NCBI GenBank assembly: GCA_019058315.1
Contig: JAHPZH010000003.1
Location: 460,451 to 524,450 of the forward strand
Source of the DNA: Candidatus Helarchaeota archaeon
GTDB taxonomy: Archaea > Asgardarchaeota > Lokiarchaeia > Helarchaeales > RDOG01
Direction of reading: 5' to 3'
Length of the DNA: 64,000 nucleotides
Shown: piece after piece, positions 4,461-25,949 of the stretch
Layout: each line of letters opens with the position of its first letter
How positions within the stretch are numbered: position 1 is the first letter of the stretch
Made by a program: the position numbers and the translations under genes
The notes under the pieces: generated by a model
Database searches by the model: none
Seen by the model: the letters and a program-made list of their open reading frames with translations, nothing else
What the model was told of the DNA's origin: nothing

Positions 4461-6257
4461 TTATTTTTTCACTGTCATTTCTGGGGCAACTTCTTTTTTC
4501 TTTACTTCTCTTTTCCAAGAATTCGGGTTATAGGAAGCAGCACCAGCAAAGTCCATTAATGTGTTTTCCTTGGGATTAACACGCACATCTAATACAGCGG
4601 GAACACCAGAATCAAACGCTCGTTTTAGAGCTGGTTGAATATCATTTGGATCATTTATTAACTCTCCGTAACAATCGAAAGCTTCTGCATATTTATCATA
4701 TCGTGTGTTATCACTCAAAGATGATCCTAAACCAAAGTATTTTCTTCCATGTGCTAATTTTTGGACTCGTGCTACCATGCCCCAAAGTCTATCATTTGAA
4801 ATAACTACAACAAAGGGCAAATTGTGTCTTCGAGCTGTATCAATTTCTTTGCCATTGAATAAGAATGAACCATCACCAGTTAGTACTAGGACCTTCTTTT
4901 CTGGATGTGCATATTTAGTCGCAATAGCCATAGGTACACCACCACCGAGATGTTGCAGTCCCAGACCACCTGAAAAATATAAACATTTTGGAAAAAAAGC
5001 ATGCCCTTGTAGATACATCAAGCCCCAAATAGTTGTATCGCCTCCATCTAAAATGATAATACCATCATTTGGCATAAAATCACCTATTTCCTTGGCTAAT
5101 CGCTGGGGCTTAATTGGTATTTTTTCAGATGTCCCATCTTTAGCGATGCGAGCATAAAACTTTTCTCTTTCTGTTTCCACTCGTTTAACCCATGGGGTGA
5201 CAGCTTTTGGTTTATTATTTAACTTCTTTTTAGTAATATGGACTAATTGAGTTAGAACACCTTTTACATCTCCCACTATTGGAACATCAATACCCCGATT
5301 GCGTCCTATTTCTTCTGCTTTGATATCAACTTGGATGAGTTTAGCCTCATCAGAAAACATGGGAGTATAACCAAAATTCATCAATTCTGTAATTCTCGAC
5401 CCTAATATCAGAGCGACGTCAACTTCTTGCATTAATGCTTGTCCTGGACCTTCTAATAAAGTTGCCAAGCCGAAATATAGAGGATCATCTGAAGGAAAGG
5501 AACCTATCCCGAAACCCCAACATCCTACAGGAGTTTGTACTAAATGGGCAAATTCAATGAGTTCTTTAGAGGCATCGGAAATTCCTACACCAGTTCCGGC
5601 CATAATTAAAGGCCTTTCAGCATTTAGTAATAAATCCACAGCTTTTGATACTAGTTCACTATTTCCATACGGCCCATGGAACGCTCGAAGTTTTTGTACA
5701 GGTACAAATGCTTGTTGAACAATATTTAATTCGTCGTTACATTCTTTTACCATAACATCAACTGGAACAAGAAGTAAGGTGGGTCCTGGCTGACCCGTTG
5801 TAGCTATTCGGAATGCCATATTAACGTACTCGGGTAGACGAGCAGTTTCGTAACAATAACCAGTCCATTTTGTTACCGAACGAAATGCGGGAGCAACATC
5901 AATTTCGTTTGCAGCCCATTTATCAAAAGTCATCATGGGAGTTGTTGAACATATAGCTACCACTGGGATACTTGCATCTTTAGCTAGTGGAAGAGCAGGG
6001 AATAAATCCGTGATTCCCGGTCCTGATTGTACTGAACAGACTCCAACTTCGCCCGTTGCCATAAAATAGCCCATAGCAGCATGACCAGTGGCTTGTTCAT
6101 GCCTAAAATCAATTAAATCTATTCCCGTTTCTGTGCAAGATTTGTCCTGACAATAATTATAAATCATATCGTTATCGCCACAAAGTGTAAAAATGACTTT
6201 AACACCTTGATTGCTTAAAGCTCGTACTATCAATTGTGCTCCATTAACCTTTACCAT
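4461..6257 (-). CDS. Thiamine diphosphate-dependent enzyme, acetolactate synthase / 2-hydroxyacyl-CoA lyase-like family
   Basis: RHEQ catalytic Glu motif, SGPG, ThDP-binding GDGS...(x24)...ND motif. Confidence 0.88.
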   Translation of the reverse strand: MVKVNGAQLIVRALSNQGVKVIFTLCGDNDMIYNYCQDKSCTETGIDLIDFRHEQATGHAAMGYFMATGEVGVCSVQSGPGITDLFPALPLAKDASIPVVAICSTTPMMTFDKWAANEIDVAPAFRSVTKWTGYCYETARLPEYVNMAFRIATTGQPGPTLLLVPVDVMVKECNDELNIVQQAFVPVQKLRAFHGPYGNSELVSKAVDLLLNAERPLIMAGTGVGISDASKELIEFAHLVQTPVGCWGFGIGSFPSDDPLYFGLATLLEGPGQALMQEVDVALILGSRITELMNFGYTPMFSDEAKLIQVDIKAEEIGRNRGIDVPIVGDVKGVLTQLVHITKKKLNNKPKAVTPWVKRVETEREKFYARIAKDGTSEKIPIKPQRLAKEIGDFMPNDGIIILDGGDTTIWGLMYLQGHAFFPKCLYFSGGLGLQHLGGGVPMAIATKYAHPEKKVLVLTGDGSFLFNGKEIDTARRHNLPFVVVISNDRLWGMVARVQKLAHGRKYFGLGSSLSDNTRYDKYAEAFDCYGELINDPNDIQPALKRAFDSGVPAVLDVRVNPKENTLMDFAGAASYNPNSWKREVKKKEVAPEMTVKK

Positions 6258-21341: not shown

Positions 21342-21977
21342 TTAGGATATTGATTTGATCATATTTTCCTTTGAATTTACATTGATATTGAAATATGTAC
21401 TACTTAAGTTTGTATAATTCCATGTCCGAGGCAAGTCTGTATCTTTATACTCATTTATTTTTGCAGAAGCTACATAGATTGTCCCGTCAATCATAGGTGA
21501 ATTGACAACCTTTGTAGGTTTTCCAGACATATCTAATAATGGTTTAGTTTTTAAACTAAAGATTCCGGGAATATCAATCGAAAATTTTGCCGCTGGACCC
21601 TTTCGTAAGATTTTTTTGGTGAAATTAATTTCTGCTTTTTTTATTTTAAGCAATTCGCCGAAGCCCTTCCAAATTTTTGTAAAAATCTTTTCTAACGCAT
21701 TTGCTTGCTCATCATTAGCATTTTGATCGATATAGAGGATTCCTTTCCAGTTTCCCATGCCTTCCATGATTGTCTTTCCTTCTGGGGTAATAAAGCCGAT
21801 ACTTATTATCGTTCCGCTTATATCTACATCTCCATATTTTCCTTCATCTATATTCATTGTCATAACACCCTCGCAGCAGCCTCTAGGAAATGGAGATAAA
21901 AAGTAAGCAGGACATATTGGCGGTGATCCACAAGCTTCAACCCAATCTCCTTTAAAATACCATTCAACTTCAGACAA
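21342..21977 (-). CDS. DUF1326 family protein
   Basis: W.F.G.WVEAC...CP...C.G, G.YGDVDISG, YID..A...Q..AL..IF pattern. Confidence 0.75.
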   Translation of the reverse strand: MSEVEWYFKGDWVEACGSPPICPAYFLSPFPRGCCEGVMTMNIDEGKYGDVDISGTIISIGFITPEGKTIMEGMGNWKGILYIDQNANDEQANALEKIFTKIWKGFGELLKIKKAEINFTKKILRKGPAAKFSIDIPGIFSLKTKPLLDMSGKPTKVVNSPMIDGTIYVASAKINEYKDTDLPRTWNYTNLSSTYFNINVNSKENMIKSIS

Positions 21978-22046: not shown

Positions 22047-23057
22047 TTATTTTTTTTCCATATTTTCAATAAGATGAAAACAATATGGATTGTTGTGAAA
22101 TTTATTTGTTAAAATATAAGAAACCGAATTACAGCCCCCCTTACATTGAATTCCAAATTTACAATCTTTACAATTTGGTCCCAATTTTGATTTCTCAAAT
22201 TTTCTATTATATGCAAAATTACTCGGGTTTTCCCAGATATCTATTAAACTCTCATTTCTCACATTTCCCTCTATAAAACGATCGTTTCCCATTGATAAAC
22301 AACCCACAATCCCACCATCACTCGTTATTCCTATACTACTTATTCCTGCCCAGCAGCCATCCCATTGAGAAAGAGGTAAATTTGCAGAATAATATCCAAG
22401 ACAGTGAGCCCCTACGACCGGTAAATCATCAAATAAATTATTTTTTCTCATAGCAGCTATGAATTTTCCCGTTTCATAAAATTCTTCTTTTGATAACATC
22501 TTATCTTTTTTGAAATTCCCAAATGGCATTGCGGTTTGTATTTGCCAGTTTATTCCCTTTTTAAATATGAAATCTTTAATCAAGGGCAAGTCTCCAAAAT
22601 TAATTCTACTCACCGTTGTGATAATTGTTATCTGTATTTCGTTTTCTCTTAATAATTCAATAGCTTTTACAGATTTTTCCCAAGTTCCTTTCCCTCTTAT
22701 TAAATCATGGCTTTCTTGCATTCCATCAATACTGATCCCAATAACTTGTGGTTCAAGTCGAGTTATTTCTTCGATATATCGATCTAAAATAATACCGTTA
22801 GATACAAAATTTACGTTCATGCCAAGATCTTTGATGCATTGAGCAACAGAAAGCCAATCATTTCTTAGAAATGGCTCTCCTCCCATTAGAGCTACTTCTT
22901 CACAACCAAGTTCGGCCAATTCTTCACAGAGTTTAAAACATTCCTTTGTGTTCAATTCATCAGGTCTGGCTTTACCTGCAGATGAGCCACAGTGAGAACA
23001 ATTTAGATTACATTCTAATGTAAATTCCCATATTGCACATTCTAATTGGTAATTCAT
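22047..23057 (-). CDS. Radical SAM/SPASM peptide-modifying enzyme, PlpX-type splicease-like
   Basis: WEFTLECNLNCSHCGS (CX3CX2C), GGEPFLR.DW, WQIQTAMPFG, CLGYY, WDGCWAG...GI..DG.I.GC.S, SPASM CKDCX5CX3C...NPYC. Confidence 0.88.
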   Translation of the reverse strand: MNYQLECAIWEFTLECNLNCSHCGSSAGKARPDELNTKECFKLCEELAELGCEEVALMGGEPFLRNDWLSVAQCIKDLGMNVNFVSNGIILDRYIEEITRLEPQVIGISIDGMQESHDLIRGKGTWEKSVKAIELLRENEIQITIITTVSRINFGDLPLIKDFIFKKGINWQIQTAMPFGNFKKDKMLSKEEFYETGKFIAAMRKNNLFDDLPVVGAHCLGYYSANLPLSQWDGCWAGISSIGITSDGGIVGCLSMGNDRFIEGNVRNESLIDIWENPSNFAYNRKFEKSKLGPNCKDCKFGIQCKGGCNSVSYILTNKFHNNPYCFHLIENMEKK

Positions 23058-23069
23058 TATTATTCCTAG

Positions 23070-23267
23070 TTATTTCCTCGAATAAACACCATAGCTTGGT
23101 GGAGCAGGTTTTGGGATGGGACGTTTCTTTTCTTTGTCTTTATTTTTGGGACCGGGATTTGATATAGGATTTGACTTAGAAGACGGTTTCGGTGGTGGAG
23201 GAGATCCTTTTTGGTGATAAGGGTATCCTCGTTTGGGATGTTTGGTTACTTTTTTTTCTTTTTCCAT
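23070..23267 (-). CDS. Putative RiPP precursor peptide A3 (65 aa)
   Basis: Lys/Pro-rich; KRGYPY and APPSYGVY boxes; ends 12 nt before the rSAM start. Confidence 0.85.
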   Translation of the reverse strand: MEKEKKVTKHPKRGYPYHQKGSPPPPKPSSKSNPISNPGPKNKDKEKKRPIPKPAPPSYGVYSRK

Positions 23268-23303
23268 AATATTTTACCCATTGATACATCTAATATAATT
23301 TAA

Positions 23304-23441
23304 TTAATCTAGTTTATAAACACCATAACGTGGCGGTGATTTGGGCTCTATTTTTTCTTCATCTGACTTATCTTTTAATTTAATTGATGATGTGTTTTTA
23401 AACGGATAACCCTTTTTTTTTGTTTCTTTCTTAATACTCAT
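23304..23441 (-). CDS. Putative RiPP precursor peptide A2 (45 aa): MSIKKETKKKGYPFKNTSSIKLKDKSDEEKIEPKSPPRYGVYKLD
   Basis: Hand-translated, not in the ORF track; GGAGGT SD 6 nt before the ATG; same two boxes. Confidence 0.85.
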   Translation of the reverse strand: MSIKKETKKKGYPFKNTSSIKLKDKSDEEKIEPKSPPRYGVYKLD

Positions 23442-23442
23442 G

Positions 23443-23583
23443 TTAATACCTCCTTTTATAAACCCCATATTTAGGAGGGGATTCTTCTTTAAGTGGACTA
23501 ATTTCCTTCTCTTTATCCTTTGATTTTAAATTTTTTGGAATTGAAAATGGATATCCTTTTCTTTTTTCTTTTTTTGAACTCAA
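23443..23583 (-). CDS. Putative RiPP precursor peptide A1 (46 aa): MSSKKEKRKGYPFSIPKNLKSKDKEKEISPLKEESPPKYGVYKRRY
   Basis: Hand-translated, not in the ORF track; TTG start preceded by GAGGA; stop 1 nt before the A2 ATG; same two boxes. Confidence 0.83.
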   Translation of the reverse strand: MSSKKEKRKGYPFSIPKNLKSKDKEKEISPLKEESPPKYGVYKRRY

Positions 23584-23656
23584 ATGAATTCCTCAATTTT
23601 CCTTATAATTTGTATTAACTAATTTAATATTAAATAGATTTGGGTTCTTTTTATTA

Positions 23657-24925
23657 CTATTCAATAATTGGTTCTCTTGGAATGTCAAAGCTTTTCTTAT
23701 TTTTAAATTCCTTTAATTCAAGTTCAATTTTCTCCTTACCTATTTTATCTTGAACTATGGTCAAAGCTTTTTCGTAATTTTGTATAATTTTATGATTTTT
23801 AAATTCCAAAATACAGCCCAGTCGTGCAATATTCCAATAGATTAGGTAATTATCAGGATTTAACTTTGAAGATGTTAAAAAATAATCTAAAGCTTGACTG
23901 AAATTTTGTTTATAAAAATTTTTTATACCAAAATTGAATAATTTGTCAGCTTGTAGTAGAATTAATTCAAAATCGAATATTTTGATATCTTTAGGCTCTA
24001 AATTTAAAATATAACTTAATCTTTCACTATAATCCTCGGGATAATTTAATATATCTAATATTAAATTCTCTAAATGGCTAATAAATTCTTTAAATTCGCT
24101 TTCTAATTCACCCAAATTTTTCTTTTTTTTCATCCATAATGAAAAAACTTTTTCATGGAATTTGATTTCAGCTAATTTCATTAGAAATTTGATTTTAGCT
24201 TCCATTTCTGTCGGTTTTAAAATACCAGCGGATAAACATTCCTCAAGAAATACTAATGGAATCTGTGGTGTGCAAATTATGGTTTGAGATATTAGTTTAT
24301 TTTGCCAGTTTTCATCATTATCAAAGATTTCAAATGCGGTTTTAAGCTGATCTTCAAGGGGAATTAATACAAAGGAATCGTTAATCTTTAGTTTATTACT
24401 TAAATTCTTCCTAAAACAGGCAAAAAGATGTTTTTTGGAAGAATTTTGAGGTTTTTCACAAATTATTCTCAATCCATATTCATATTTATGGGTTTTTTGT
24501 TCTTCTTTCCTTATATTTCCAAAACCAATTTCTTCTAAAAGCTCCTTGATTAATTTATAAGTAAAACCAGTTTTGTGTTGCATCCCTCTACTATCTATTC
24601 CATAAATCCATCTCAATGTTATTTTTTGATTATCCAGATCTTCAGCAACTAGTTTTTCAAAGGATTTCTCAAGGTCAGGAGTTTCTAATATTAATTTTCC
24701 CGATGGAATCAGAATTCTAAACCAATCACTAAGAATATATTTAGAATGGATATAATCAAAATGCTCAATTAATTGATCAGCTTCAATTAAATCAATAGTA
24801 TTGGATTCAAATGGAAGATTATCAATGTCGTAGATTTCATCTGCTACATCTTTATTATATTTGTCGATATTAATATAACCAGGTTTATATTTTGAACCAC
24901 ATCCGAGGTTAAGCTTGATTTTCAT
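23657..24925 (-). CDS. Class I SAM-dependent methyltransferase with C-terminal helical/TPR domain
   Basis: KLNLGCG motif I, LPF..NTID, IEHF, L.P.G.L.L.TPD; C-terminal TPR (ALDYF...LNPDNYLIYWNIA); start probably MKIK at 24925. Confidence 0.8.
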   Translation of the reverse strand: MKIKLNLGCGSKYKPGYINIDKYNKDVADEIYDIDNLPFESNTIDLIEADQLIEHFDYIHSKYILSDWFRILIPSGKLILETPDLEKSFEKLVAEDLDNQKITLRWIYGIDSRGMQHKTGFTYKLIKELLEEIGFGNIRKEEQKTHKYEYGLRIICEKPQNSSKKHLFACFRKNLSNKLKINDSFVLIPLEDQLKTAFEIFDNDENWQNKLISQTIICTPQIPLVFLEECLSAGILKPTEMEAKIKFLMKLAEIKFHEKVFSLWMKKKKNLGELESEFKEFISHLENLILDILNYPEDYSERLSYILNLEPKDIKIFDFELILLQADKLFNFGIKNFYKQNFSQALDYFLTSSKLNPDNYLIYWNIARLGCILEFKNHKIIQNYEKALTIVQDKIGKEKIELELKEFKNKKSFDIPREPIIE

Positions 24926-25949
24926 CCAATTCTTCACTTTTTTTAAAATTCGCTTTTAATAATTTGAATAGTCTTAAAGTGCTTGTTGCTGCTTCATCAT
25001 TAGGATCTAATTTGAGTGCTTGTTCTAGGCACTCAATGCCCTTTGATATATTTGCTAGATTACTTTTTCCATATAAATAACCCATATAATACCATGCTTT
25101 ACTGTTTTTCGGATCGATCTCAGTTACTTTTTCCAGATACTTAATAGATTTTTGATAAGCTTCTATTTTAGCATAAGCAGATGCTAACTTAAACATTGCG
25201 ATGCTATCTTCTGGGTCGATTTCGACTTCAATTTCACGACATTCTAGTACTCTATATTCTTTTCCGATAATTTCATAAATGTCCCCCAATTTAGTCCATG
25301 CTTCTTTGTAATTTGGATCTGTCTTGACTGCTTTATCAAGACATTCAATAGCTTTCTTATATTTTTTGAGATTAAGGAATGCAAGCCCCATAACAAACCA
25401 AGCTTCACTTCCCATAGGATCCAGTCGTACAATTTTTTCAAAAGATTTTATGGCTTTTCTATAACTTTCTATGGAAACATAAGAATTTCCCAAGTTTAAC
25501 CAAGCTTGTTTAAACTTTGGGAAAATTTCTACAGCTTTTTCATAGCAATTAATTGCTTTTTGTGGATCTTTTAGTTTATCATGAGAAATTCCCATGTTAA
25601 ACCAATAATTTTGATTATTTTCATCAATTTTTATAGCTTTATTAAAACAAACAATTGCTTTATTATATCTTTTTAACATGTTACAAGCCAAACCTAGATT
25701 ATACCACCCAACCTTATTATTCGGATCGATTGTGACAGCTTTTGTACAGTAATTTATTGTTTTTTCATAATCTCCATATATTTTACCAATATAGAGACCT
25801 AAATAATTCCAAGCCATACTATGATTTGGATCTATCTTAACAGCATTAATAAAACACTGAATTGCTTTTTTTAAATCGGCTTTTTGAGCTAAATATAAAC
25901 CCCTATCAAACCATTCTTTGGCTGCCATTCCCGTTATTAATTTTGACAT
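24909..25949 (-). CDS. Tetratricopeptide repeat protein
   Basis: About 9 TPR units (W..LG...A...F.KA..IDP); overlaps the methyltransferase gene. Confidence 0.92.
   Translation of the reverse strand: MSKLITGMAAKEWFDRGLYLAQKADLKKAIQCFINAVKIDPNHSMAWNYLGLYIGKIYGDYEKTINYCTKAVTIDPNNKVGWYNLGLACNMLKRYNKAIVCFNKAIKIDENNQNYWFNMGISHDKLKDPQKAINCYEKAVEIFPKFKQAWLNLGNSYVSIESYRKAIKSFEKIVRLDPMGSEAWFVMGLAFLNLKKYKKAIECLDKAVKTDPNYKEAWTKLGDIYEIIGKEYRVLECREIEVEIDPEDSIAMFKLASAYAKIEAYQKSIKYLEKVTEIDPKNSKAWYYMGYLYGKSNLANISKGIECLEQALKLDPNDEAATSTLRLFKLLKANFKKSEELDENQA

What the first reader, a model, noticed from the sequence alone, without database searches (positions are those of the whole stretch)
23304..23583. Two unannotated sub-50-aa genes hidden in an 'intergenic' gap
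23443..23583 (TTG start, GAGGA SD) and 23304..23441 (ATG, GGAGGT SD lying inside the previous gene's last codons) fall below the ORF-track cut-off. Both carry the same two motif boxes as the 65-aa ORF, while codon choice within the boxes varies (Gly GGG/GGT, Pro CCT/CCG/CCA). That points to selection on the peptide rather than a DNA repeat. Standard annotation would miss two of the three substrates.
Basis: seen in the sequence. Interest (0 to 1): 0.8.

Follow-up and report, generated by a model that had tools for sequence, protein, structure and literature searches.

The report
Small tyrosine-tailed peptide genes, radical-SAM substrates
Two 45-46-residue genes hidden in an apparent gap of an Asgard archaeal genome are real, conserved genes, and with a third they are very probably the substrates of the neighbouring radical-SAM enzyme, a distant relative of the bacterial "spliceases" that cut a tyrosine out of a peptide backbone.

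Summary
On the minus strand, pepA (23583..23443, TTG, 46 aa) and pepB (23441..23304, ATG, 45 aa) precede pepC (65 aa) and a radical SAM/SPASM gene. All three carry G-Y-P-[FY] near the N-terminus and P-P-x-Y-G-V-Y near the C-terminus, with differing codons.

Four related Asgard contigs keep the same intact triad. dN/dS is 0.25-0.48. The residue before Tyr-Gly is fixed per ortholog: Lys, Arg, Ser. Only 18 relatives turned up among 5.8 billion proteins.

The window's genome holds two larger two-box proteins elsewhere. One of them has its ortholog inside the operon of a close relative.

The enzyme's clade is nested among archaeal enzymes whose neighbours are 115-165-aa membrane proteins with the same two boxes. 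The small soluble peptides are therefore a derived, stripped-down substrate form.

A complex model places the C-terminal box in the enzyme barrel (score 0.92, best control 0.02).

The closest named family is the PlpX tyramine spliceases (TIGR04103, 230 bits against a 725-bit cut-off), so this is not a member. Chemistry is unproven: splicing is the leading guess. Against it, sister loci carry Y-N, Y-D or Y-S instead of Y-G.

This scan had already found the membrane-substrate form of the cassette in other genomes.

The parts
23443..23583 (-). pepA, 46 aa, TTG start. A Lys-rich soluble peptide (pI 10.0, no Cys) with the N box GYPF and the C box PPKYGVY.
   Evidence: Intact orthologs in L080, L082, L093, P0125, P0126, P0129 and P0131. 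In L093 the start is also TTG; in L080 and L082 it is ATG.
23590..23594 (-). GAGGA Shine-Dalgarno-like site, 6 nt before the TTG of pepA
   Evidence: Read directly from the sequence.
23545..23556 (-). pepA N box, G10-Y11-P12-F13
   Evidence: G-Y-P is invariant in 20 family members.
23458..23478 (-). pepA C box, P36-P37-K38-Y39-G40-V41-Y42. This is the part modelled inside the enzyme barrel.
   Evidence: Peptide residues 28-46 form the confident interface, and the lowest-error contacts are at Y39, G40, V41 and Y42.
23304..23441 (-). pepB, 45 aa, ATG start one base after pepA's stop. N box GYPF (23400-23411), C box PPRYGVY (23316-23336).
   Evidence: Orthologs begin MSIKK in L080, L082 and L093, so the 54-aa form on record (start 23468) is probably over-extended.
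23448..23454 (-). AGGAGGT Shine-Dalgarno-like site for pepB, lying inside the last codons of pepA
   Evidence: Read directly from the sequence.
23070..23267 (-). pepC, 65 aa, with a Pro/Lys-rich linker. N box GYPY (23217-23228), C box PPSYGVY (23082-23102).
   Evidence: 65-aa orthologs in L080, L082 and L093.
22047..23057 (-). Radical SAM/SPASM enzyme, 336 aa, with no N-terminal recognition domain. It starts 12 nt after pepC.
   Evidence: Pfam Radical_SAM and SPASM. Best NCBIfam match is TIGR04103 at 230 bits against a 725-bit cut-off, then TIGR03913 at 198 bits. Homologs 60-86% identical occur in Asgard and other archaea. Complex model.
23657..24937 (-). Class I SAM-dependent methyltransferase, about 165 aa, with a helical or TPR-like C-terminal half (426 aa in all). 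It ends 73 nt before pepA.
   Evidence: Weak Methyltransf_11/23 hits. A homolog lies beside the enzyme in most of the 79 related loci. Natural methyltransferase-radical SAM fusions exist, P0163 and P0165.
21342..21977 (-). DUF1326 protein, 211 aa, downstream of the enzyme
   Evidence: Pfam PF07040, E 1e-19. Kept after the enzyme only in the closest loci L080, L081 and L082. Whether it belongs to the system is uncertain.

Best explanation
pepA and pepB are real genes. With pepC and two larger proteins encoded elsewhere in the genome, they form a family of 'two-box' proteins. These are the substrates of the adjacent radical SAM/SPASM enzyme and its partner methyltransferase.

Shown:
- The ORFs are conserved and under purifying selection.
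- The enzyme-plus-methyltransferase pair is conserved across many archaea and some bacteria. It nearly always sits next to proteins with a Tyr-centred C-terminal motif, and natural fusions of the two enzymes exist.
- The enzyme clade of this window is nested among clades whose neighbours are membrane proteins of the form leader helix, TM, YP[YF], TM, xY[G/N/D/S]V[YF]. The 45-65-aa soluble peptides are therefore a derived minimal form that keeps only the two boxes.

Inferred:
- The enzyme binds the C box in its barrel and acts on the invariant Tyr.
- The most likely reaction (my estimate about 0.4) is the splicease reaction: excision of a tyramine equivalent at x-Tyr-Gly. [quoted passage not shown]
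- The methyltransferase adds a further, unknown methyl group.
- No signal peptide, leader cleavage site, protease or exporter is present. The products would therefore be full-length basic cytoplasmic mini-proteins, possibly ketoamide-type protease inhibitors.

The role of the N box is unknown. It may be a docking site or a second reaction site.
For: Coding and selection:
- Intact triads occur in L080, L081, L082 and L093.
- dN/dS is 0.25-0.48.
- The boxes are invariant in 20 members.
- The residue before Tyr is fixed per ortholog group: K, R, S.
- Chance expectation is 8e-5 ORFs with both boxes.

Link to the enzyme:
- The gap from pepC to the enzyme gene is 12 nt.
- Substrate type tracks the enzyme tree: 6 label changes against a shuffled mean of 32. 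The soluble-peptide clade (support 99) lies inside the membrane-substrate clade (support 97).
- In L093, the ortholog of the genome's 163-aa two-box protein lies between pepC and the enzyme gene.
- Complex model: ipSAE 0.92, best of 3 controls 0.02. That mark was reached by 58 of 80 solved complexes and 2 of 110 mismatched pairs. Runs agree in at least 64% of contacts, and partner pLDDT is at least 48. The interface is peptide residues 28-46 against barrel residues 9, 56, 83-85, 105-107, 144-146, 170-172 and 215-218.

Methyltransferase:
- It co-localises with the enzyme in most loci.
- Fusions P0163 and P0165 carry a homologous methyltransferase domain, 36-46% identical.

Splicease lead:
- TIGR04103, the PlpX family (IPR026482, PMC11002830), is the best-scoring named family at 230 bits. 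The next radical SAM protein in this genome scores 101 bits.
- Known splice sites are x-Y-G followed by a hydrophobic residue. Tags derived from PlpA2 and PlpA3 read RP-x-YGLPI and AVAA-x-YGVVFPG (PMC10533398).
- Binary systems without a Y protein exist, and AlphaFold likewise places their XYG site in the active site (PMC11414181).
- Spliceotides inhibit proteases (PMC11626197).
- Bacterial homolog loci fuse the Tyr motif to a Kunitz/BPTI domain.
- The genome's 101-aa two-box gene abuts a serpin gene.

The peptides contain no Cys, which excludes thioether chemistry.
Against: - The enzyme is far below the curated TIGR04103 cut-off (230 against 725 bits). The whole clade scores about equally against the uncharacterised TIGR03913.
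- Of ten representative relatives tested, none passes the TIGR04103 cut-off.
- In the nearest sister loci, whose enzymes are 61-75% identical, the residue after Tyr is Asn, Asp or Ser: L001, L002, L003, L005, L008, L083. In more distant clades it is Ser, Tyr or Phe. So Tyr-Gly is not a fixed requirement of this enzyme family, unlike all published splice sites I could read.
- The helical leader seen in relatives (KLxEIGxKLGLxxxDI), and shown to activate binary spliceases, is absent from the window's peptides.
- The invariant N box has no role in the splicease model, and the complex model did not place it confidently.
- No mass-spectrometric or other direct evidence exists for any member.
- Transcription evidence is thin.
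Confidence: 0.6

Rival explanations
1. The peptides are substrates of the enzyme, as above, but the chemistry is not tyramine excision. Three alternatives stand out:
- A Tyr-centred carbon-carbon or carbon-oxygen cross-link within Y-x-V, or within Y-P-[FY], in the style of three-residue cyclophanes.
- A staple that joins the N box to the C box.
- A mycofactocin-like reaction on the Val-Tyr pair.
For: - Tyr is the only residue invariant across all substrate groups. The following residue varies (G, N, D, S, Y, F), while the one after that stays V, A or T.
- Both boxes read Y-x-hydrophobic.
- In the more distant groups B to E, two Tyr lie only five residues apart (Y-x4-Y-G). In group A and in this window the YP[YF] box and the xYGV box are separated by a TM segment or a linker. 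This looks like one bipartite core pulled apart.
- MftA ends in G-V-Y, and MftC acts on that Val-Tyr (PMC8326336). TIGR03962 is among the hits at 131 bits.
- In the complex model, the lowest-error contacts are at V41 and Y42 as much as at Y39 and G40.
Against: - PlpX-type models score clearly higher than MftC, WgkB, DynA or SkfB models: 230 bits against 83-131.
- The mycofactocin reaction needs the Tyr at the very C-terminus. Here 2-4 residues follow, and the last aromatic varies in relatives (Y, F, L, V, C, Q, A).
- The N box was not placed at the enzyme in the model.
- The cyclophane comparison rests on my recollection of that family, not on a test here.
Confidence: 0.3
2. The small ORFs are real genes but not substrates. 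They would be small basic proteins, for example nucleic-acid-binding or membrane-binding, that merely share an operon with the enzymes.
For: - pI is 9.7-10.3, the peptides are Lys-rich and they look disordered.
- No leader, protease or exporter is present.
- Two family members lie away from the enzyme gene.
Against: - The only invariant parts are two short Tyr motifs. The same motifs mark the neighbours of homologous enzymes across phyla.
- Neighbour type co-varies with the enzyme clade.
- The complex model passes its controls.
Confidence: 0.06
3. The ORFs are non-functional remnants of decayed membrane-protein genes, or chance ORFs in AT-rich spacer DNA.
For: - They are short, and one has a TTG start.
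- Gene callers disagree about them.
- The genome is 30% G+C.
Against: - The ORFs are intact, with conserved lengths, in at least four independent assemblies and in further metagenome contigs.
- dN/dS is below 0.5.
- Shine-Dalgarno-like sites lie at the right spacing.
- Chance expectation is 8e-5.
Confidence: 0.02

Closest known systems
Spliceotide systems: tyramine spliceases PlpX/PcpX with PlpY (type I), and the binary RhaX/RhaA, RcsX and RasX systems. NCBIfam TIGR04103, InterPro IPR026482.
   Same: - The enzyme is a radical SAM protein with a SPASM domain, and this family is the best-scoring named one.
- Several tandem precursor genes lie next to the enzyme.
- The core is x-Tyr-Gly followed by a hydrophobic residue, with a variable x.
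- Binary forms without a recognition protein exist.
- Structure predictions put the Tyr site in the barrel.
- A protease-inhibitor theme runs through both: Kunitz fusions and a serpin neighbour here, and inhibitory spliceotides in the literature.
   Different: - The score is 230 bits against a 725-bit cut-off, so this is not a member by the curated test.
- The host is archaeal. Per the review PMC10849128, published mining reported bacterial genera.
- There is no Nif11 or NHLP leader and no activating helix in these peptides.
- A conserved partner methyltransferase is present.
- A second invariant box, GYP[FY], is present.
- Sister loci replace Gly by Asn, Asp or Ser.
- There is no protease or exporter, so the product is probably a whole small protein.
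The archaeal radical SAM + methyltransferase + small-membrane-protein cassette, uncharacterised. This scan noted it earlier in Promethearchaeum syntrophicum MK-D1 and in Heimdall-, Thor- and Loki-type genomes.
   Same: - The enzyme and methyltransferase families are the same, with 51-75% identical enzymes.
- The neighbours carry the same two boxes, YP[YF] and xY[G/N/D/S]V[YF].
- The window's enzyme clade is nested inside this group.
   Different: - Those substrates are 115-165 aa, with an N-terminal helix and two hydrophobic segments.
- Here the helix and both hydrophobic segments are gone, leaving 45-65-aa soluble basic peptides.
- Gly after Tyr, and Pro-Pro before x, are invariant in the soluble clade.
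Mycofactocin maturation: MftC acting on MftA, with MftB (TIGR03962)
   Same: - The enzyme is a radical SAM/SPASM protein acting on a Tyr in a C-terminal G-V-Y context of a small peptide.
- TIGR03962 is among the hits.
   Different: - The score is 131 bits against a 265-bit cut-off.
- MftA's Tyr is the last residue, whereas here 2-4 residues follow.
- There is no MftB-like recognition protein and there are no other mft genes.
TIGR03913: GDL-motif peptide-associated radical SAM/SPASM maturase
   Same: It is the second-best model, and scores about equally with TIGR04103 across the whole clade. It is named for tandem small-peptide neighbours.
   Different: The score is 198 bits against a 592-bit cut-off. 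The peptides here have no GDL motif. As far as I know the function of that family is itself unknown.

Membership tests
Tyramine spliceases / spliceotides (TIGR04103, IPR026482) | Radical SAM core with a CxxxCxxC motif, plus a C-terminal SPASM domain | tested here: met
   Pfam Radical_SAM (E 2e-23) and SPASM (E 6e-10). C16, C20 and C23 are invariant in the alignment of 19 homologs.
Tyramine spliceases / spliceotides (TIGR04103, IPR026482) | Score at or above the curated family cut-off | tested here: not met
   230 bits against a cut-off of 725. Relatives score 168-219 bits.
Tyramine spliceases / spliceotides (TIGR04103, IPR026482) | Adjacent precursor genes with an x-Tyr-Gly splice motif | tested here: inconclusive
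   The motif is invariant in the 20 soluble-type peptides. The nearest sister loci have Y-N, Y-D or Y-S at the same place.
Tyramine spliceases / spliceotides (TIGR04103, IPR026482) | A Y protein (PqqD-like) or an activating leader helix in the precursor | tested here: not met
   No such gene lies in the operon. Only about 9 residues precede the N box. The leader helix of related substrates is absent here.
Tyramine spliceases / spliceotides (TIGR04103, IPR026482) | [quoted passage not shown] | not testable with these tools
   This needs co-expression and LC-MS/MS.
RiPPs in the strict sense (leader/core precursor, released product) | A leader peptide removed by a protease, and usually export of the product | tested here: not met
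   There is no protease, no transporter and no Gly-Gly-type cleavage site in or near the operon. No signal peptide or TM segment is present.
Mycofactocin system (MftA/B/C) | A C-terminal Val-Tyr at the very end of the precursor, an MftB partner, and a TIGR03962 score above the cut-off | tested here: not met
   2-4 residues follow the Tyr. TIGR03962 scores 131 bits against 265. There is no MftB-like gene.
Sactipeptides / ranthipeptides | Cys residues in the core for thioether formation | tested here: not met
   pepA, pepB and pepC contain no Cys.
Archaeal radical SAM + methyltransferase Tyr-tail cassette (uncharacterised; seen earlier in this scan) | An enzyme of this clade, a homologous methyltransferase next to it, and neighbours with YP[YF] and a C-terminal xY[G/N/D/S]V motif | tested here: met
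   Tree, methyltransferase co-location, motifs.

The most novel reading that the evidence does not exclude
Asgard archaea make cytoplasmic, gene-encoded mini-proteins whose backbone is edited at a Tyr by a splicease-like enzyme and then methylated. The two invariant boxes would act together as a portable bipartite tag that can be hung on very different 'cargo': a bare Lys-rich linker, a helical domain, or a membrane hairpin. Either both boxes dock, or they are covalently stapled. The per-gene Lys, Arg or Ser before the Tyr would set the target specificity of a small panel of endogenous ketoamide inhibitors of the cell's own or of viral proteases. This would be the first archaeal spliceotide-type chemistry, and a protein-level rather than natural-product use of it.
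Probability: 0.2. Interest if true: 0.85.

Novelty: new variant of a known kind. Interest (0 to 1): 0.62.

Why it matters
Backbone editing by spliceases is known only from bacterial peptide natural products. Here a related but distinct enzyme family, always paired with a methyltransferase, is conserved across Asgard archaea, Thermoplasmatota and several bacterial phyla, and nobody has characterised it.

The peptides of this window are the most tractable substrates of that family. They are 45-65 residues long, soluble, free of Cys and without a leader, and the predicted binding site is 7 residues. One co-expression and mass-spectrometry experiment on them could settle the chemistry for the whole family, including the membrane-protein forms found in the cultured Promethearchaeum syntrophicum.

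The case also shows that sub-50-aa genes are called erratically in Asgard genomes.

Tried and rejected
- **Rfam scan** of 22800-23800, both strands, E up to 1: no match.
- **Promoter and terminator consensus scan:** no more hits than in shuffled sequence, and bacterial consensus is not suited to archaea anyway.
- **PADLOC:** only a weak generic viperin-like hit on the enzyme (80 bits). No defence family matched the other genes.
- **Pfam and NCBIfam on the peptides and on the two larger two-box proteins:** no family.
- **PDB sequence search:** no solved splicease. The nearest are SkfB and PqqE.
- **Placing the enzyme against true PlpX members:** this failed. None of ten length-matched representatives from the exhaustive search passes the TIGR04103 cut-off; the best, P0210, reaches 311 bits. 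The primary paper classifying splicease types (Chem 2022) is not held. I therefore could not check whether any clade seen here, for example the Kunitz-fused bacterial one, was already classified there.
- **RNA evidence:** the one RNA run found holds 16% of the sampled words. Its contigs cover pepC and the 3' part of pepB only. The uncovered parts (pepA, enzyme, methyltransferase) say nothing.
- **The N box in the complex model:** it was not in the confident interface. That is no evidence that it does not bind.
- **Membrane topology of the related membrane substrates:** the flanking charges did not settle it.
- **DNA tandem repeat as an explanation:** considered and rejected, because codons differ within the boxes and the linkers are unrelated.

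Full report
**What is there.** The window is G000:C11:460451-524450 of a 5.8-Mb, 30% G+C Asgard archaeal genome. The closest named relatives of its genes are MAGs labelled Promethearchaeota and Candidatus Helarchaeota.

On the minus strand the genes run co-directionally in this order:
- three TPR genes
- a 426-aa methyltransferase with a helical C-terminal half (24937..23657)
- pepA (23583..23443, 46 aa)
- pepB (23441..23304, 45 aa)
- pepC (23267..23070, 65 aa)
- a 336-aa radical SAM/SPASM enzyme (23057..22047)
- a DUF1326 protein (21977..21342)

pepA starts with TTG, six bases after GAGGA. pepB's ATG lies one base after pepA's TAA, six bases after an AGGAGGT that sits within pepA's last codons. 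The enzyme gene starts 12 bases after pepC.

All three peptides are Lys-rich, have pI 9.7-10.3, lack Cys and lack any hydrophobic segment.

The three peptides share [KR]-G-Y-P-[FY] at residues 9-17 and P-P-x-Y-G-V-Y two to four residues from the C-terminus. Their linkers are unrelated, and synonymous codons differ within the boxes.

From residue frequencies in all six-frame ORFs of the genome, I expect 0.03 C boxes and 8e-5 ORFs with both boxes.

A relaxed scan looked for a C-terminal YG[VA][YF] within 8 residues of the end. It finds 12 ORFs in the genome. Five of them carry YP[FY] near the N-terminus:
- pepA, pepB and pepC
- a 163-aa protein at C3:73443-73931
- a 101-aa protein at C5:1134431-1134733

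**They are genes under selection.** Look-ups of close homologs of the enzyme returned contigs with the same triad.
- L080 and L081 (enzyme 82% identical) and L082 (86%) each have 44-45, 43-44 and 65-aa genes followed by the enzyme and DUF1326.
- L093, from a Helarchaeota-labelled MAG, has methyltransferase, pepA (also TTG), pepB and pepC. The first residues of its enzyme are about 96% identical to the window's.
- No ORF carries a stop or frameshift.

Nei-Gojobori dN/dS for the concatenated peptides is 0.25-0.48, against 0.12-0.15 for the enzyme.

A profile search of 5.8 billion proteins found only 18 relatives, all unnamed or 'hypothetical'. In an alignment of 20 members, G-Y-P and P-P-x-Y-G-V-Y are invariant.

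The residue before Tyr is fixed within each ortholog group: Lys in pepA, Arg in pepB and Ser in pepC. One distant member has Cys.

**Annotation.** Annotation is erratic rather than uniformly blind.
- For the window's own contig, only a 54-aa pepB is on record. Its start is not supported by the orthologs, which begin MSIKK.
- The exact pepA, 45-aa pepB and pepC products are not on record.
- L093's called genes lack pepB.
- L080, L081 and L082 have all three.

**Transcription.** One wetland metatranscriptome holds two 151-nt contigs, 95-98% identical, over 23077-23227 and 23235-23385. This is a weak hint for pepC and the end of pepB. It says nothing about pepA.

**Link to the enzyme.** A scan of species-representative genomes gave 79 loci with homologs 42-68% identical. 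Beside them lie proteins that fall into groups, each with a Tyr-centred C-terminal motif.

| Group | Host and enzyme identity | Neighbouring substrate |
|---|---|---|
| A | Asgard, Thermoplasmatota, Undinarchaeota-labelled; 51-75% | One to four tandem 115-165-aa proteins: N-terminal helix (KLxEIGxKLxVxxxDI), hydrophobic segment, YP[YF], basic patch, second hydrophobic segment, xY[G/N/D/S]V[YF]. The cultured Promethearchaeum syntrophicum MK-D1 has such a locus (L019). |
| B | Thermoplasmatales, Methanobacteriota | 57-85-aa peptides ending GPPxY....YGTISIKDF |
| C | Thermodesulfobacteriota, Nitrospirota and a Deltaproteobacteria-labelled MAG | Proteins with a Kunitz/BPTI domain (Pfam E 5e-14 and 6e-15) and a tail ending SKYGAVGxRDF |
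| D | Thor | Membrane-anchored proteins ending xYG[TS]IxPxDF |
| E | Other Promethearchaeota | Membrane-anchored proteins ending xYSSISIKDF |

On a maximum-likelihood tree of 82 enzymes, the substrate type needs 6 changes against a shuffled mean of 32. The window, L080 and L082 form a clade (SH-aLRT 99) nested in the 25-row group-A clade (97). With any root outside group A, the soluble peptides are a derived form: a membrane substrate that has lost its helix and both hydrophobic segments and kept the two boxes. Kin share labels, so the tracking alone does not prove co-evolution.

Two further points tie the larger two-box proteins to the system.
- In L093, the ortholog of the genome's 163-aa protein lies between pepC and the enzyme gene. 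Its 5' end shows a one-base frame break in an A run.
- The genome's 101-aa member lies 650 nt from another radical SAM/SPASM gene and abuts a serpin gene.

**The methyltransferase belongs to the system.** A homolog lies within the fetched flanks of most of the 79 loci, in all substrate groups. Two representatives, P0163 and P0165, are natural fusions of a homologous methyltransferase domain (36% and 46% identical over about 160 residues) to a radical SAM/SPASM domain 40-42% identical to the window's. Its target is unknown. Feature-based look-alikes are unnamed archaeal clusters.

**Complex model.** The enzyme (alignment of 19) and pepA (alignment of 20) were folded with SAM and three 4Fe-4S clusters riding along.
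- The model supports binding; it does not show it.
- Score 0.92; best of 3 controls 0.02.
- The mark was reached by 58 of 80 solved complexes and 2 of 110 mismatched pairs. These counts hold only roughly here, because my own alignments were used and small molecules rode along.
- The runs agree in at least 64% of their contacts, and partner pLDDT is at least 48.
- The confident interface is peptide residues 28-46. The lowest-error contacts run from Y39, G40, V41 and Y42 to enzyme residues 9, 56, 83-85, 105-107, 144-146 and 170-172, which I take to be the strand ends of the barrel. P36 and P37 contact residues 217-218.
- The N box is not in the confident interface. That is not evidence that it does not bind.

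**What chemistry.** The best named match of the enzyme is TIGR04103 at 230 bits, against 101 bits for the next radical SAM protein of the genome. TIGR04103 corresponds to IPR026482, the family of PlpX (PMC11002830). [quoted passage not shown]

Points in favour of splicing:
- Published splice tags read RP-x-YGLPI and AVAA-x-YGVVFPG, close to the P-P-x-Y-G-V-Y found here.
- Binary systems without a recognition protein are known.
- The products inhibit proteases. This fits the Kunitz fusions, the serpin neighbour, and the Lys and Arg before the Tyr.

Points against splicing:
- The score is a third of the curated cut-off.
- The whole clade scores about equally against the uncharacterised TIGR03913.
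- The nearest sister loci have Asn, Asp or Ser after the Tyr, and more distant clades have Ser, Tyr or Phe.
- The peptides lack the activating helix.
- The invariant N box has no role in the splicing model.

In groups B to E a second Tyr lies five residues before the motif Tyr. In group A and in this window the YP[YF] box is far away in sequence. This may mean a bipartite core. Other Tyr-directed radical chemistry, such as a cross-link, a staple or an MftC-like reaction, therefore remains open.

My odds:

| Claim | Probability |
|---|---|
| The ORFs are real genes | about 0.95 |
| They are substrates of this enzyme | about 0.85 |
| The Tyr of the C box is the site | about 0.7 |
| The reaction is tyramine excision | about 0.4 |

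**Novelty.** The enzyme-methyltransferase-substrate cassette is, as far as the held literature shows, uncharacterised. The review of splicease mining speaks of bacterial genera only, and the primary classification paper is not held.

This scan had already found the membrane-substrate form in other genomes: e1-2536671 in MK-D1, and e1-5449750, e1-3066221, e1-2792574 and e1-2551473. I re-derived that picture independently from loci L001-L079.

New in this report:
- the soluble, leaderless mini-substrates, and their nesting in the membrane-substrate clade
- the five-member regulon
- the ortholog-specific residue before Tyr
- the methyltransferase fusions
- the complex model

I rate this a new variant of a known kind.

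Noticed in passing
G000:C5:1134431-1134733 (+), = L094:3432-3737; neighbours L094:3742-4773 (-) and L094:1294-2769 (-): This is the fourth two-box protein: 101 aa, TGYPF near the N-terminus, PPPRYGVYSKI at the C-terminus, and a Cys-containing middle part. It is convergent with a full-length serpin gene, 5 nt away (Pfam E 2e-109). A second radical SAM/SPASM gene of 491 aa, with an N-terminal Cys-rich extension, lies 650 nt away.
   Followed up: partly
G000:C3:73443-73931 (+), = L095:3444-3935; L093:6715-7176: This is the fifth two-box protein: 163 aa, with an internal duplicated helical motif. It lies 12 nt upstream of a Gtr1/RagA/Arf-like small GTPase gene. Its ortholog in the close relative L093 sits between pepC and the enzyme gene. 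There, the start codon is out of frame by one base in an A run, which may be an assembly error or a real frameshift.
   Followed up: partly
L050:3505-3978, L062:3463-4002, L077:3595-3999, L074:3595-3999: In several bacterial MAGs, the protein next to the homologous enzyme has an N-terminal helix, a membrane anchor, a Kunitz/BPTI protease-inhibitor domain and a Tyr-motif tail (SKYGAVGxRDF, or TRYFTVSIRDF in L050). The L074 protein was assigned to this group by sequence pattern only; I did not scan it against Pfam.
   Followed up: partly
P0163, P0165, P0159, P0140, P0160 (representatives): Several natural fusions turned up. P0163 and P0165 are methyltransferase-radical SAM/SPASM fusions. P0159 is a radical SAM/SPASM enzyme fused to a PrcB_C domain. 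P0140 and P0160 are double radical SAM proteins.
   Followed up: partly
P0132 (110 aa, on a 595-nt metagenome contig): Two peptide units are fused in one ORF: KGYPF...SPPKYGVFKK followed by SVYPF...RPLRYGVYSRK. It is a natural tandem fusion of the family.
   Followed up: no
window 23268-23303 and 23584-23656 (minus strand): The spacers before pepC and before pepA are AT-rich and hold TATA-like runs (TTATATTA; TTTAATATTAAATT) about 30 nt ahead of the starts. They may be separate archaeal promoters for the peptide genes. I did not test this.
   Followed up: no
L042, L044, L068 (about 5030-5900); L064, L076 (about 5120-5990); L023, L026, L027, L031: In the more distant substrate groups a second conserved Tyr lies five residues before the motif Tyr (Y-x4-Y-G or Y-x4-Y-S), often as Y-P. 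In group A and in this window a YP[YF] box is separated from the motif by a hydrophobic segment or a linker. This may be one bipartite core that has been pulled apart.
   Followed up: partly
L080:1352-1795: In the orthologous locus L080, a 147-aa gene with a weak Fuz_longin_1 hit and a 110-aa membrane-protein gene lie just upstream of the peptide genes, in place of the methyltransferase gene that immediately precedes pepA in this window.
   Followed up: no
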